A stretch of DNA of 64,000 nt. Origin: Limnochordia bacterium (GTDB lineage: Bacteria > Bacillota > Limnochordia > DTU080). The stretch lies in assembly GCA_050951545.1 (NCBI GenBank), contig JBMNJG010000016.1:64001-128000 (forward strand). Direction: 5' to 3'. The notes under the pieces are model-generated. The model was not told the origin of the DNA and searched no databases. It saw nothing but the letters and a program-made list of their open reading frames with translations. Made by a program: the position numbers and the translations under genes. This document shows, piece after piece, positions 13,564 through 15,957 of the stretch. Numbering within the stretch: the first letter of the stretch is position 1; each line of letters begins with the position of its first letter.

Positions 13564-13639
13564 TGGTGCGCCCAGCAGGACTCGAACCTGCGCACCCGGC
13601 TCCGGAGGCCGGTGCTCTAATCCGCTGAGCTATGGGCGC
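13564..13639 (-). tRNA. tRNA-Arg (CCG)
   Basis: 76-nt cloverleaf, anticodon arm CCGGC-CT-CCG-GA-GCCGG, GTTCGA T-loop, encoded CCA. Confidence 0.97.
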
Positions 13640-13912
13640 CTATCTTTACCTCCGCATTATAGCAGAGAGCCGGGCAGCCTGCAACCCAAACTCCGATGGC
13701 GAGTGCATACGGAAGTCGCGGTGAACGGGTGTTCTCACGGCTGCTACGCCGCCTTTCCACGCACCCAACAGATTCAGTTCGACTGTGACTGGGATTCCAA
13801 CTGCGCCCTTCCCACCTGCTAGCGTCTTCAACAATCGTGATCAGTTGGGTCGGGGTAGGGCCGCGCTAACCCGTCGTGGGTCGATGCCCAGGCTCGTCGT
13901 GGGCGGTACACA

Positions 13913-14236
13913 GGTCGGTTACATCGCCTGATTTGGCAAGAAACGGGCGATGCTCACTGGTTTCACTTCCGTCAGTCCCGGACCCGGGTGGTGAGTCGGG
14001 GCCCGGGGTCGGTTACATCGCCTGATTTGGCAAGAAACGGGCGATGCTCACTGGTTTCACTTCCGTCAGTCCCGGACCCGGGTGGTGAGTCGGGGCCCGG
14101 GGTCGGTTACATCGCCCGATTTGGCAAGAAGAGGGCGATCTCACTGGTTTCACTTCCGTCAGCCCCGGACCCGGGTGGTGAGTCGGGGCCCGGGGTCGGT
14201 TACATCGCCCGATTTGGCAAGAAGGGGGCGATGCTC
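13913..14236. repeat. Tandem array of about 3.4 copies of a 93-94 bp hairpin-containing unit
   Basis: GGTTACATCG recurs at 13917, 14011, 14105 and 14198; units differ at only a few positions. Confidence 0.95.
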
Positions 14237-14522
14237 CAGTCTCATCTTCGATCACAGGGAGGCCGACCAGGCGACGGGGCGGGTTCTGGGCAAGGCAAGA
14301 TGGCTATTGAGCGGAACATTGTGATTTCGAGGCGGTTACAGCCGGTAGTGGGGCGCCCGTTGGCGCACCACTGGTCTGCTATTGTCACGACTTGTGCCGA
14401 GGGCACCGGGCGAGGGCATAGGGGCACCTGCTCTAGCGAGCGGCAGCGAGAGGTTGCTGAAACCCCTACTGTGAAGGGGGACAGATGATTCGAGGCGATG
14501 GCGCACTCTTGGCCGTCGTTGG

Positions 14523-15626
14523 CTATTCGCTGGCGGCATCACTGGTGGGCGCCCAGCCACCCTTAGCCGTCTCGCGGTAGAAGCGGCTCCTCAGATCGAG
14601 GTACCTGAGGAGTTTCTTGTTAAGGTCGCTTCGCAACGGCAGCAGTTGGCCAGCCTTGAACTTCATGGTGAGCCAGGACAGGTCCTTGGCATGGATCACA
14701 ACCAACGTGACGTTGTTCTTCTCACACAATTCACGCTTGGTCTTGTCACGTTCCATCTGCTTAGCCACCACGTCAGCCGAGAACCGTTTGGTAGGGGTGT
14801 AGTGTTGTGGCCCGTTAAACTCAAAAGCCACCGCCTCGAGGCCATAGTGGCGGTCGAGCTCCAGTAACATGCCAGTAGCCGGGTTGACGAGAAAACGGGG
14901 AGACGCGTTGTCTTTGTGGTCATCGGAGTCGAAAATAGCCGATAGGTATTCCTGCATCAAGGCCTGTCCGAAGAACTCAGCCTCGTCGAGTCGCTGCTGC
15001 GCCGCTAGCAGTTCATCCATGTACCTGCGGGCGACCGGGTTGCAGAGGCTGAAGCAAATGGGAGCCTGCTTGTGCTCTTGCTGCATCTCCAGCCAGCCCA
15101 GCTTCGCCAGTTGTCGAGCAGCCCGCTTGACCGTCTTGGCGTCTAGACTCATCATCCGGGACACAGATGCATATGTGAACACGCCCTGCAAATTACGGTA
15201 ATCGGGCGTGGCCTGCAGTGCACCATAGACCACCTTGGCCTGAGCACTGACCTCCGTGGCGATGATCAGCTCAGTAGGCATAACCACCCTTGGCCCCGAC
15301 AGCTCTTTTGCTGGGGCCTGGTTGACGCCTGTGGGCAGATTGTACCAGCCCTCAGTGGTTAGCTTTGCCGTAGCCTTGCGGACGGTGGGTCGGGACAAAC
15401 CGGTACGAGCAGCCAAGCGAGTGGGCGACAGACGAGCTCGCTCCCCCAACTCAGCGTCGAGTGTGAGGGCCAGCCAAACTACCTTATCCGTCGCTCTTAA
15501 CTGGCTAGTGAGCAGCAACGAGATCGGCACGCGAACCTCTTCGATATCCAAGGGCGCCACCTCCAGCCAGAATGTCTGTTCGGTTCCCGAATAAATGTTC
15601 GACACACTCCGGTAGAGTTCCTCCAT
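14523..15626 (-). CDS. Tandem winged-helix protein with C-terminal Vsr/DUF559-like nuclease domain
   Basis: Two internal repeats ending TVRKATAKLTTEGW and TVKRAARQLAKLGW; C-terminal FLVNPATG..LELD..VAFEFNGPQHY..RDKTKRELC..VTLVVI; exact start uncertain. Confidence 0.75.
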   Translation of the reverse strand: MEELYRSVSNIYSGTEQTFWLEVAPLDIEEVRVPISLLLTSQLRATDKVVWLALTLDAELGERARLSPTRLAARTGLSRPTVRKATAKLTTEGWYNLPTGVNQAPAKELSGPRVVMPTELIIATEVSAQAKVVYGALQATPDYRNLQGVFTYASVSRMMSLDAKTVKRAARQLAKLGWLEMQQEHKQAPICFSLCNPVARRYMDELLAAQQRLDEAEFFGQALMQEYLSAIFDSDDHKDNASPRFLVNPATGMLLELDRHYGLEAVAFEFNGPQHYTPTKRFSADVVAKQMERDKTKRELCEKNNVTLVVIHAKDLSWLTMKFKAGQLLPLRSDLNKKLLRYLDLRSRFYRETAKGGWAPTSDAASE

Positions 15627-15704
15627 GAAAAGGTCGATTCAGACAAAACCAGAGGCGGCGTGCACCCAGCTCTTGAAAGCGAGGCGCGATGGCACGTTTT
15701 CCGG

Positions 15705-15830
15705 TCGTGATGGGGGCATCTGGGTAGAACAGTGCTAGCCCGCCGCGGTGACCAGTGCCGTCCTGCCAAAGCAGACCCGTGCACACACCGGTTACATCAC
15801 CCAATTCGGCAAGAGACGGCCGATGCTTAC
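15705..15830. repeat. Degenerate direct-repeat copy of the 13835-13960 region
   Basis: TCGTGAT..GGGTAG..GCTAGCCCG..GGTTACATCACCCAATTCGGCAAGAGACGGCCGATGCT is colinear with the copy preceding and starting the array. Confidence 0.75.
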
Positions 15831-15957
15831 CAGTTCGACCGCCCCAAGCGGATATCAACGTGCAATAACAGCGGGGAAAGAAAGAGGACCATGGCTATTT
15901 CGCCAAGGCCGCCGCTGTGCCCTCCAAAGCCAGGCCGAGTATCCCGTAACCCTCACG

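What the first reader, a model, noticed from the sequence alone, without database searches (positions are those of the whole stretch)
13835..15840. Candidate repeat-associated nuclease element: tandem winged-helix plus Vsr-like nuclease gene bracketed by hairpin direct repeats
Seen: a lone 367-aa gene (14523-15626, minus) lies between tRNA-Arg and a DUF421 gene. A same-orientation repeat occurs on both sides: one degenerate copy upstream (about 15705-15830) and a 3.4-copy array downstream. I see no transposase, integrase or cas gene in the window. Known analogies: REP/RAYT systems pair palindromic repeats with a cognate nuclease, and iteron-type initiators bind direct repeats through winged-helix domains. 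Inference: this may be a selfish or domesticated module whose protein binds and nicks its own repeats, or uses a repeat-derived RNA. I do not recognise it as a named system.
Basis: partly seen in the sequence, partly recalled or inferred. Interest (0 to 1): 0.82.

Follow-up and report, generated by a model that had tools for sequence, protein, structure and literature searches.

The report
Multi-copy nuclease element with terminal repeats
The flagged gene and its flanking repeats form one copy of an undescribed, roughly 2-kb selfish DNA element that has spread to many sites in this bacterial genome and encodes a DNA-binding protein fused to a homing-endonuclease-type nuclease instead of a normal transposase.

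Summary
In detail: a 94-bp x 3.5 tandem array (13913-14236), a 367-aa gene (14523-15626, minus) and one degenerate repeat copy (15790-15827).

The gene is not lone. The 3.64-Mb genome holds 7 copies of the whole ~1.9-2.1-kb block.

There are 21 more loci of three sister subfamilies (~50% aa identity). Two of these carry their own tandem arrays (units ~405 bp and ~260 bp). These share the core GGTTAYRT with family A, on the strand opposite the gene.

Two same-genus genomes have the tRNA-Arg/DUF421 site empty and contain no homologue.

Six of 7 copies are intact, with dN/dS 0.13-0.40.

The protein has two winged-helix domains resembling phage replication initiators. Its C-terminal domain matches phage homing-endonuclease families and, weakly, DUF2726.

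No transposase, plasmid or Rfam match was found, and there is no covariation for an RNA.

Best reading: an undescribed IS-like selfish element whose nuclease acts on its own terminal repeats. The mechanism is inferred, not shown.

The parts
13708..15848 (.). Approximate extent of the insertion relative to two same-genus genomes (empty site). The edges are uncertain by tens of bases.
   Evidence: In G001:C7 and G002:C70, glycerate kinase, tRNA-Arg and DUF421 are collinear, with only ~78-155 bp where the window has ~2.3 kb.
13740..13912 (+). Left terminal region. It is shared (81% over 13740-14139, near-identical over the last ~90 nt) with the copy at G000:C5:215707-217734, which also sits 5' of a tRNA-Arg gene. 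The last ~22-60 nt are recognisable in 5-6 of 7 copies.
13913..14236 (+). Tandem array of the 94-bp unit (3.5 copies). Each unit starts with the GGTTACATC core and an imperfect 8-9-bp stem. Copy number varies from 2.5 to 4.6 among the 7 element copies.
14237..14522 (.). Conserved non-coding spacer between the array and the 3' end of the gene (column identity about 0.91-0.97 across 7 copies).
14523..15626 (-). Gene for the 367-aa protein. It has wHTH 1 (aa ~43-94), wHTH 2 (aa ~114-196) and a Vsr/DUF2726-like homing-type nuclease domain (aa ~220-317). Residues D258, E269, G272, H275, Q290, R293, D294 and K297 are invariant; N271 is nearly invariant. The start codon is uncertain (residue 1 or residue 8).
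15627..15789 (.). Conserved upstream region. Its last ~60 nt (GCTAGCCCGCCGCGG...GTGCACACACC) is a diverged direct repeat of the sequence just left of the array.
15790..15835 (+). Solo terminal repeat forming the right end of the element. Similarity among copies, and to metagenome contigs of other copies, stops at 15827-15835 (...CGGCCGATGCT/YACYRGTT).
   Evidence: loose end at 15827

Best explanation
Window ~13.7-15.85 kb is one copy of an undescribed IS-like selfish element of a Bacillota genome. The element carries a single gene. Its product joins two winged-helix DNA-binding domains (replication-initiator/DnaD-like) to a Vsr/DUF2726-type nuclease domain of the kind found in phage homing endonucleases.

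The element is bounded by same-orientation copies of a terminal repeat whose core is GGTTAYRT. One of the two terminal repeats has been amplified into a tandem array.

Shown here: multi-copy dispersal, exclusive gene-repeat linkage, subfamily-specific (cognate) repeat units, an empty site in congeners, purifying selection on the protein, and an internally deleted derivative of a sister subfamily that keeps both ends.

Inferred, not shown: the winged helices read the repeat units, the nuclease cuts or nicks at or beside the conserved core, and host replication or repair then copies the element to new sites. Repeated cutting and re-synthesis or unequal exchange at the repeat would make the arrays. 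The asymmetric ends (no inverted repeats, a precise right end, a ragged left end) fit a strand-specific, one-ended copy mechanism better than cut-and-paste.
For: 1. Copy number and linkage. There are 7 copies at 96-100% aa identity and 90-96.5% nt identity over 1.8-1.9 kb. All 33 of 33 motif hits in the genome lie at those loci, and the reversed-pattern control gives 0.

2. Cognate arrays. Subfamily B2 (15 loci) has ~405-409-bp units x2-5.7 directly 5' of the gene. B3 (4 loci) has ~255-282-bp units 3' of the gene. A, B2 and B3 all carry [CG]GTTA[CT][AG]T on the strand opposite the gene, on both sides of the gene in many copies; the background is 0.074 per kb per strand.

3. Precise end. At least 9 of 14 B2 copies examined end in the same ~60-nt terminal sequence (...GCGTGGCCCC) and then diverge (genome-wide ends). 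C12:189427-190847 keeps the 3' end and the array but lacks most of the gene.

4. Empty site. G001 and G002 (same genus, 95% and 91% complete) have the syntenic site without array or gene, and have 0 protein matches.

5. Selection. Six of 7 A copies are intact; pairwise dN/dS is 0.13-0.40, with mean dN 0.017 and mean dS 0.073.

6. Protein. HTH_36, HTH_24 and HTH_IclR score above the Pfam cut-offs and GntR meets its cut-off (27 of 27 bits). phrog_8102 'replication initiation protein' matches aa 114-186 at E 1.9e-9. phrog_559, phrog_9084 and phrog_7140 (HNH/homing/intron-encoded nuclease) match aa 266-317 at E 5e-8 to 7e-5, and reach 1e-11 for sister protein P0005. The domain is 32% identical over 123 aa to phage 0305phi8-36 ORF194 'homing nuclease'. 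DUF2726 matches 16 of 40 relatives.

7. Populations. In metagenome contigs of three DNA runs from three studies, depth over the element is ~3-15x that of its flanks, and contigs bridge both junctions at this same site.

8. Wider family. There are 401 50%-identity clusters at E<=1e-30. The gene is multi-copy in other genomes (G009 14 matches, G004 20 matches). Tandem repeats are enriched next to homologues (0.53-0.74 per kb within 1 kb against ~0.2 per kb at 3-5 kb, 70 loci).
Against:
- The C-terminal profile finds no solved structure (0 hits at E<=10), and the window protein itself does not hit DUF2726.
- No target-site duplication or inverted terminal repeat could be established.
- Only 1 of the 6 A loci compared with congeners (the seventh, C4, was fetched but not searched) gave a clean two-sided empty site. 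The others lie in variable regions.
- Copies differ by ~4-10% at synonymous or non-coding sites, so there is no sign of very recent movement. Contigs of the 4 runs laid showed no empty-site or circle joint.
- The left end is ragged among copies.
- In other genomes the GGTTAYRT core and flanking direct repeats are mostly absent: 4 of 33 loci had direct flank repeats, 1 of 33 had inverted ones. Arrays of period >=40 lie near only 18 of 75 homologues.
- The tandem-repeat enrichment is partly confounded by intergenic DNA.
Confidence: 0.6

Rival explanations
1. Homing rather than transposition. The tandem arrays are a pre-existing dispersed satellite. The gene is a free-standing homing endonuclease that cuts gene-less arrays and is copied into them by recombinational repair.
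For: The C-terminal domain matches phage homing-endonuclease families and a phage 'homing nuclease'. Gene-less arrays of the B2 unit exist, e.g. C10:60283-61401, C14:354-1053, C14:7971-8669 and C2:185169-185895. The gene is flanked on both sides by repeat units.
Against: Family A has no gene-less array: 33 of 33 motif hits lie at gene loci. At the window locus the congeners lack array and gene together. The terminal solo copy is a distinct, conserved variant rather than a split array unit.
Confidence: 0.15
2. Integrated mini-replicon or satellite. The protein is an origin-binding initiator (tandem winged helices, as in lambda O, DnaD or RepA) with a nicking domain. The arrays are its origin repeats, and copies arise by integration of an episomal form.
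For: The wHTH region hits phage replication-initiation PHROGs (phrog_8102 at 1.9e-9; also phrog_270, phrog_391 and phrog_186). The arrays lie directly beside the gene, as with rep-iteron modules. B2 and B3 units contain 2-3 internal GG(G)AAA-type boxes (consensus; my reading). Short-period arrays, each of a different unit, flank the G009 copies.
Against: There is no match in 72,556 plasmids, and phage matches cover only the nuclease domain. No integrase is present in the element. Units of 94-409 bp are far longer than classical iterons (17-22 bp, recalled). All 28 loci are chromosomal. No circular joint was seen in the contigs laid.
Confidence: 0.12
3. An ordinary expanded family of host transcription regulators (as annotated: 'HTH domain protein', 'ArsR family') whose flanks happen to be repetitive.
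For: Sources name relatives only as HTH or ArsR regulators. The strongest Pfam hits are regulator-type wHTH families.
Against: Non-coding flanks are co-duplicated at 90-96% identity. Both congeners lack the gene. A nuclease-type C-terminal domain with invariant acidic and His residues is conserved. Copies sit at unrelated loci.
Confidence: 0.03
4. RNA-based system. The array is transcribed and processed into unit RNAs that guide or regulate the nuclease (CRISPR-, TIGR- or OMEGA-like).
For: One metatranscriptome run has low-depth contigs (2-3x) over the array (14092-14207) and the gene. The repeat unit can form two stems.
Against: Units within an array are near-identical, with no spacers. Folding is no better than shuffles. 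There is no Rfam hit. Stem changes are uncompensated. The 49 B2 units show compensatory change in only 3 of 81 and 2 of 72 predicted pairs on the two strands. The RNA library may contain DNA (warning).
Confidence: 0.05

Closest known systems
EDxHD / Vsr-like homing endonucleases (I-Bth0305I; phage Hef-type). Source: Taylor et al. 2011, PMC3239194; passages read.
   Same: Both have N-terminal HTH-type DNA-binding modules plus a C-terminal Vsr-like nuclease, and both are selfish genes. The residue pattern D...(13)...N...(4)...H...D in this family parallels Asp196/Asn208/His213/Asp222 of I-Bth0305I. That mapping is my comparison with the paper's text, not an alignment to 3R3P. The best phage match is a 'homing nuclease' of the same phage, 0305phi8-36.
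   Different: The DNA-binding part here is two winged helices, not NUMODs. The gene is not in an intron or intein. It is dispersed at 28 unrelated chromosomal loci with its own terminal repeats and arrays. No sequence-level hit to the solved structure was obtained.
IS200/IS605 and IS91/ISCR/Helitron-type elements (HUH single-strand or rolling-circle transposons). Characterisation recalled; Replitron paper listing seen.
   Same: Both are small one-gene elements without inverted terminal repeats and with asymmetric ends. They have same-orientation subterminal structures, one precise and one variable end, and no clear target duplication.
   Different: No HUH/Y1 or Rep domain is present. The nuclease here is of the PD-(D/E)XK/Vsr type. 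Tandem amplification of the terminal repeat is a regular feature.
REP/RAYT systems
   Same: Both pair a nuclease gene with cognate flanking repeats in one genome.
   Different: RAYTs are HUH Y1 enzymes, usually single-copy, with hundreds of REPs scattered away from the gene. Here the gene is multi-copy and every repeat lies at a gene copy.
Iteron-binding replication initiators (lambda O, RepA/pi, DnaD-like; recalled, with PHROG hits)
   Same: Both have tandem winged-helix domains and direct repeats next to the gene, specific to each protein subfamily.
   Different: Units here are 94-409 bp, not ~20 bp. A nuclease domain is fused. The elements are chromosomal and multi-copy, and there is no plasmid homologue.
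PD-(D/E)XK proteins in transposition or recombination (Tn7 TnsA; Rpn/Transposase_31; TnsA listed as clade 59 in PMC3424549)
   Same: A restriction-endonuclease-fold nuclease serves DNA mobility.
   Different: TnsA works with the DDE transposase TnsB. Here no second protein is encoded, and no TnsA or Transposase_31 profile was hit.

Membership tests
EDxHD / Vsr-like homing endonucleases | Vsr-like catalytic domain with conserved Asp, Asn/His, His and Asp active-site residues | tested here: inconclusive
   For: D258, E269, H275 and D294 are invariant and N271 is nearly invariant. PHROG homing/intron-nuclease families hit at E 2e-7 to 1e-11. Phage 'homing nuclease' ORF194 is 32% identical over 123 aa. 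DUF2726 hits 16 of 40 relatives. Against: the C-terminal profile gives 0 PDB hits at E<=10, ORF194 does not hit 3R3P, and no structure model was possible.
EDxHD / Vsr-like homing endonucleases | Gene sits in an intron, an intein or a single cognate site and spreads by homing to the empty allele | tested here: not met
   28 loci in unrelated contexts, carrying their own non-coding ends.
Insertion sequences / transposons (general) | Multiple copies with shared, defined ends at unrelated loci | tested here: met
   There are 7 A copies. The right end is sharp at ...GATGCT(+8). The B2 right end is identical in >=9 of 14 copies. The left ends are ragged.
Insertion sequences / transposons (general) | Empty site in related genomes | tested here: met
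   G001:C7 and G002:C70 are empty at the window locus. Five other A loci gave no two-sided synteny.
Insertion sequences / transposons (general) | Recognised transposase (DDE, DEDD, HUH, serine or tyrosine) | tested here: not met
   Pfam and NCBIfam give only HTH families. The IS21 hit has E 0.013 and 15 bits against a cut-off of 160.
Insertion sequences / transposons (general) | Terminal inverted repeats and target-site duplication | tested here: inconclusive
   No inverted repeats were found between the ends. A possible CCCAARC duplication at the window site and CATTG at one B2 copy are too weak to claim.
REP/RAYT | HUH Y1 (TnpA_REP) nuclease | tested here: not met
   No such profile was hit.
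REP/RAYT | Repeats dispersed through the genome away from the gene | tested here: not met
   33 of 33 motif hits lie at the 7 gene loci.
Iteron-type Rep initiators | Tandem winged-helix DNA-binding domains | tested here: met
   wHTH 1 scores above the Pfam cut-offs. wHTH 2 hits phrog_8102, phrog_270 and phrog_391, and Crp/MarR wHTH chains in the PDB profile search at E 0.005-0.01.
Iteron-type Rep initiators | Carried on a plasmid or phage replicon, with short iterons at an origin | tested here: not met
   No plasmid match was found. Units are 94-409 bp. All loci are chromosomal.
Pfam DUF2726 (PF10881) | Score above the Pfam gathering threshold | tested here: not met
   The window protein has no DUF2726 hit. 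Among relatives, 16 of 40 hit at E<=10, best 7.9e-4. For the C-terminal domains alone, 6 of 28 hit, best 0.013.

The most novel reading that the evidence does not exclude
A new class of prokaryotic transposable element. Its sole protein is a winged-helix-guided Vsr/PD-(D/E)XK nuclease, with no DDE, HUH, serine or tyrosine enzyme. The protein recognises directly repeated termini and drives a nick- or break-initiated copy mechanism. As a by-product, that mechanism amplifies the terminal repeat into subfamily-specific tandem arrays of 94-409 bp. This would link homing endonucleases, replication initiators and insertion sequences in one lineage of several hundred protein clusters in Bacillota.
Probability: 0.35. 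Interest if true: 0.85.

Novelty: new variant of a known kind. Interest (0 to 1): 0.74.

Why it matters
All established bacterial IS families rely on DDE/DEDD, HUH, serine or tyrosine enzymes (recalled). A dispersed one-gene element built on a homing-type Vsr-like nuclease with replication-initiator-like winged helices would add a mobility route.

It would also explain a protein family of at least 401 clusters at 50% identity that databases label merely as HTH or ArsR regulators.

It gives a natural case of a sequence-specific nuclease tied to cognate repeat arrays of very different unit length. That makes it a tractable model for how minisatellite-like arrays arise in bacteria, and a source of new DNA-recognition modules.

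Practically, these elements are likely to break short-read assemblies of digester and landfill Bacillota, and they are mis-annotated as regulators.

Tried and rejected
The ESM Atlas search by features gave only sub-threshold leads (0.83-0.84; DUF559 in 26% and DUF2726 in 14% of members).
- PDB by sequence: the whole protein and profile A1 hit only wHTH regulators. The C-terminal profile A2 hit nothing.
- PADLOC: only insignificant wHTH hits, so there is no defence-system assignment.
- Rfam: only the tRNA.
- Promoter and terminator scan: nothing useful.
- RNA structure: the fold of the A unit is not better than shuffles. B2 units show no meaningful covariation.
- Empty sites at five other A loci: only one flank, or a different insert, in G001 and G002. 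The C6 right junction could be placed to within ~6-25 nt. The seventh A locus (C4, L135) was fetched but not searched.
- Conservation of the GGTTAYRT core or of flanking direct repeats in distant homologues: not found.
- Metagenome scan for the A motif: 2 contigs. One is the C6-type copy of the same species. The other has no similarity to the element beyond the motif.
- Laid contigs: no joints, so neither excision nor circles were seen, and stretches without cover prove nothing. RNA contigs at depth 2-3 are not evidence of transcription.
- Subfamily B1 (2 copies) has no detectable array or core.
- The '1 TGA' flags are simply stops upstream of the B2 start codon.
- Literature: searches for tandem repeat / winged helix / Vsr / mobile element / nuclease, DUF2726, restriction endonuclease-like / insertion sequence / transposase / winged helix / tandem repeats / multicopy, I-Bth0305I and Vsr-like / transposon / terminal repeats / prokaryotic listed no paper describing such an element. 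Only listings and abstracts were seen, except for passages of PMC3424549 and PMC3239194. Supplements were not consulted and may hold family lists.
Full report
**1. What is in the window**

- TRF reports a single array at 13913-14236: period 94, 3.5 copies, 96% matches.
- The 25-nt motif occurs four times in the array and once at 15790, always on the + strand, against 0 expected.
- The ORF 14523-15626(-) encodes 367 aa.
- tRNA-Arg(ccg) is at 13564-13639(-).
- The right-hand neighbour is a DUF421 protein and the left-hand one is a glycerate kinase.

The 'hairpin' is less solid than the repeat. The unit folds no better than shuffled sequence. The 8-bp stem of array units is disrupted without compensation in the solo end copies of all elements.

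**2. The gene is not lone**

A six-frame search of the window's own 3.64-Mb assembly (16 contigs, 93.9% complete) finds 7 loci encoding the protein at 96-100% identity. One of these, on C6, is broken into two pieces. A further 21 loci encode relatives at about 50% identity, and there are two small fragments.

Alignment of the 7 copies with 2.5-kb flanks shows a shared block of about 1.9-2.1 kb. Its order is:
- array of 2.5-4.6 units;
- a conserved ~290-bp spacer;
- the gene;
- a conserved ~160-bp upstream region;
- one solo repeat.

The right end is sharp. Similarity stops 0-8 nt after ...CGGCCGATGCT (window 15827-15835) in the copy alignment, at the junction with a congener's flank for the C6 copy, and as a loose end at 15827 in metagenome contigs.

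The left end is ragged. All copies begin near the first unit, and 5-6 of 7 share 22-60 nt before it. The window copy and the C5:215707-217734 copy share about 170 nt more (13740-13912). Both of these lie just 5' of tRNA-Arg genes.

The ~60 nt before the first array unit and the ~60 nt before the solo unit are diverged direct repeats of each other. The element therefore has ~110-nt terminal direct repeats, one of them expanded.

**3. Sister subfamilies show the same design with different units**

The 21 more distant loci fall into three groups.

| Subfamily | Copies | Copy-to-copy nt identity | Array unit | Array position |
|---|---|---|---|---|
| B1 | 2 | 97% | none detected | - |
| B2 | 15 | ~90-93% | ~405-409 bp, x2-5.7 | immediately 5' of the gene |
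| B3 | 4 | 92-99% | ~255-282 bp | 3' of the gene |

Array data come; B1 was checked.

In A, B2 and B3 each unit carries the core [CG]GTTA[CT][AG]T on the strand opposite the gene. A further single copy of the core lies on the other side of the gene:
- 7 of 7 A copies (in C13 the core is AGTTACAT, so the regex listed only 6; it is visible);
- 2 of 4 B3 copies;
- 5 of 15 B2 copies.

The genomic background is 0.074 per kb per strand.

At least 9 of 14 B2 copies examined end in the same ~60-nt terminal sequence and then diverge. At C12:189427-190847 the 3' end of the gene is fused to the array with most of the gene missing, as in a non-autonomous derivative. Gene-less B2 arrays also exist.

**4. 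Evidence that the block is an insertion**

Of 40 related genomes searched, 13 have homologues. The two same-genus genomes, G001 and G002 (95% and 91% complete), have none.

Both keep the glycerate kinase - tRNA-Arg - DUF421 synteny. Only ~78-155 bp separate the tRNA flank from DUF421, where the window has ~2.3 kb.

Sequence divergence of 71-85% identity blurs the edges. The insertion is roughly 13708-15848, and no target duplication can be claimed.

Five other A loci lie in regions without two-sided synteny.

In contigs of three DNA metagenome runs from three studies, flank depth is 31, 6 and 20. Depth over the element is ~137-461, ~18-58 and ~81-295. Contigs bridge both junctions at this site, and no empty-site joint was seen. 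Runs of 17 studies (bioreactor, digester and landfill metagenomes by their labels) hold at least part of the element; 17 of the 24 runs listed hold half or more of its sampled words.

**5. The protein**

Pfam places a winged helix at aa 43-94, with HTH_36, HTH_24 and HTH_IclR above cut-off and GntR exactly at its cut-off. A second winged helix at aa ~114-196 is seen by phage replication-initiator families (phrog_8102 at 1.9e-9, plus phrog_270 and phrog_391) and by weak Crp/MarR matches.

The C-terminal ~100 residues match several sources:
- PHROGs annotated as HNH/homing/intron-encoded nucleases;
- the free-standing 'homing nuclease' ORF194 of Bacillus phage 0305phi8-36, at 32% identity over 123 aa;
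- DUF2726 in 16 of 40 relatives, best E 7.9e-4.

Steczkiewicz et al. 2012 place VSR, DUF559 and DUF2726 in one PD-(D/E)XK clade that includes a group I intron homing endonuclease (passages).

Invariant residues across 40 relatives are D258, E269, G272, H275, Q290, R293, D294 and K297; N271 is nearly invariant. Their spacing resembles Asp196/Asn208/His213/Asp222 of I-Bth0305I as described by Taylor et al. 2011 (passages). That mapping is my inference.

No transposase, integrase or defence profile is hit, and there is no plasmid homologue.

Six of 7 A copies are intact, and pairwise dN/dS among them is 0.13-0.40. The protein is therefore under selection.

**6. The wider family**

A profile search of 1.84 billion representatives finds 401 clusters at E<=1e-30 and 2411 at E<=1e-10.

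Named records are MAGs of Symbiobacteriaceae, Limnochordia, Thermaerobacter and other Bacillota. The nuclease domain alone also appears in a few Promethearchaeota MAGs.

The gene is multi-copy in other genomes (14 matches in G009, 20 in G004), but the copies there are only 65-83% identical at the DNA level.

Association with repeats in other genomes:
- Arrays with period >=40 lie within 2.5 kb of 18 of 75 homologues, against 4 loci with such arrays further out.
- Tandem repeats of any period >=8 reach 0.53-0.74 per kb within 1 kb on either side, against ~0.2 per kb at 3-5 kb and 0.125 per kb inside the gene (70 loci).
- This is a real but partly confounded enrichment, because gene ends abut intergenic DNA and short-read MAGs collapse arrays.
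- The GGTTAYRT core and flanking direct repeats are not conserved outside this genome.

**7. How it most likely works**

Shown: a one-gene block with its own ends has multiplied to 7 (and, with sister subfamilies, 28) sites. It is missing from congeners. It keeps its protein under selection. Each protein subfamily is paired with its own repeat unit built around a shared core.

Inferred:
- The winged helices read the units. The units contain one (A) to three (B2) GG(C/G)AA-type boxes by my reading.
- The nuclease cuts at or near the core.
- Copying follows by host replication or repair.
- Arrays arise from repeated cutting and re-synthesis or unequal exchange at the terminal repeat.

Direct rather than inverted termini, a precise end and a ragged end favour a strand-asymmetric, one-ended process. 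This is functionally like IS91, Helitron or IS200/IS605, but with a different enzyme.

I hold 'selfish mobile element' at about 0.85 and 'this protein is the mobility nuclease acting on its own repeats' at about 0.5. The combined statement is given 0.6.

**8. Rivals**
- Homing into pre-existing arrays fits the nuclease family and the gene-less B2 arrays. It does not fit family A, where no gene-less array exists and the empty site lacks array and gene together.
- An integrated iteron replicon fits the initiator-like winged helices. It lacks any plasmid relative, integrase or circular form.
- An ordinary regulator family is excluded by the co-duplicated non-coding ends.
- An RNA-guided system has no support from structure or covariation.

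**9. Novelty**

Five literature searches listed nothing describing such an element, and databases name the protein only as an HTH or ArsR regulator.

I file it as a new variant of known kinds (IS-like selfish elements; homing-type nucleases). The bolder reading, that it is a new transposase class, is at about 0.35.

Noticed in passing
G000:C5:1458-3086, C6:153894-159109, C9:15169-16945, C16:153015-157743 (all outside the window): CRISPR-like arrays with two repeat types (GGTCAATCCCCGCGTGTGCGGGGGAGCC and GTTTCAATCCACGCCCCCGTGCGGGGGGCGAC) appear in the genome-wide TRF listing. The genome therefore has CRISPR loci even though the window shows no cas gene.
   Followed up: no
G000:C16:38327-38910 (outside the window); also C6:82375-82996, C11:82585-83748, C7:558103-558807, C2:145828-146613: Other long-period tandem arrays (142 bp x4.1 at 99% identity; 311, 611, 339 and 210 bp) that are not linked to the gene family. 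They were not examined and some may be coding repeats.
   Followed up: no
G000:C7:660020-660065 and C11:1508-1555: The flank of one B2 left end and the flank of another B2 right end are the two arms of a long perfect palindrome (core CGGAAGTCCTGATCAGGACTTCCG). This hints at insertion into or beside a palindromic, terminator-like or REP-like target.
   Followed up: partly
G000:C16 near 1-2100 and C7 near 457700 (B2 left ends): A remnant resembling the B2 right terminus (...CCGCTATTTTTTGCGTGGACCCC) lies 15 nt outside the B2 left end in 2 copies. This is what a head-to-tail or circle junction, or insertion next to an older end, would leave.
   Followed up: partly
28 family loci in G000 versus tRNA genes: Five of 28 loci have the gene within 1 kb of a tRNA gene (A: 887 and 827 nt; B2: 533, 694 and 379 nt). 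With 51 tRNAs in 3.64 Mb, about 0.8 would be expected by my rough hand estimate, which suggests a preference for tRNA-proximal intergenic DNA.
   Followed up: partly
L159, L163, L165, L167, L169 (G009 loci): Each G009 homologue is flanked by short-period tandem repeats of a different unit (10-27 bp, e.g. 14 bp x3.4, 13 bp x3.2, 9 bp x9.9, 12 bp x5.8). The pattern is iteron-like and copy-specific.
   Followed up: partly
L120, L122, L123, L124: The nuclease-domain motif FEFNG[PA]QH also occurs in Promethearchaeota (Asgard) MAG contigs. The matches cover residues ~220-316 only.
   Followed up: no
L187 (EF583821.1:114861-115373): Phage 0305phi8-36 ORF194, annotated 'homing nuclease' (170 aa, free-standing between a hypothetical gene and one upstream of thymidine kinase), shares the whole C-terminal module of this family. 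It does not hit the solved I-Bth0305I domain of the same phage by phmmer.
   Followed up: partly
window 15605-15626: The start codon of the gene is uncertain. The ESM Atlas record starts at residue 8, relatives align only from about residue 25-30, and other copies have GTG or other codons at the annotated ATG.
   Followed up: no
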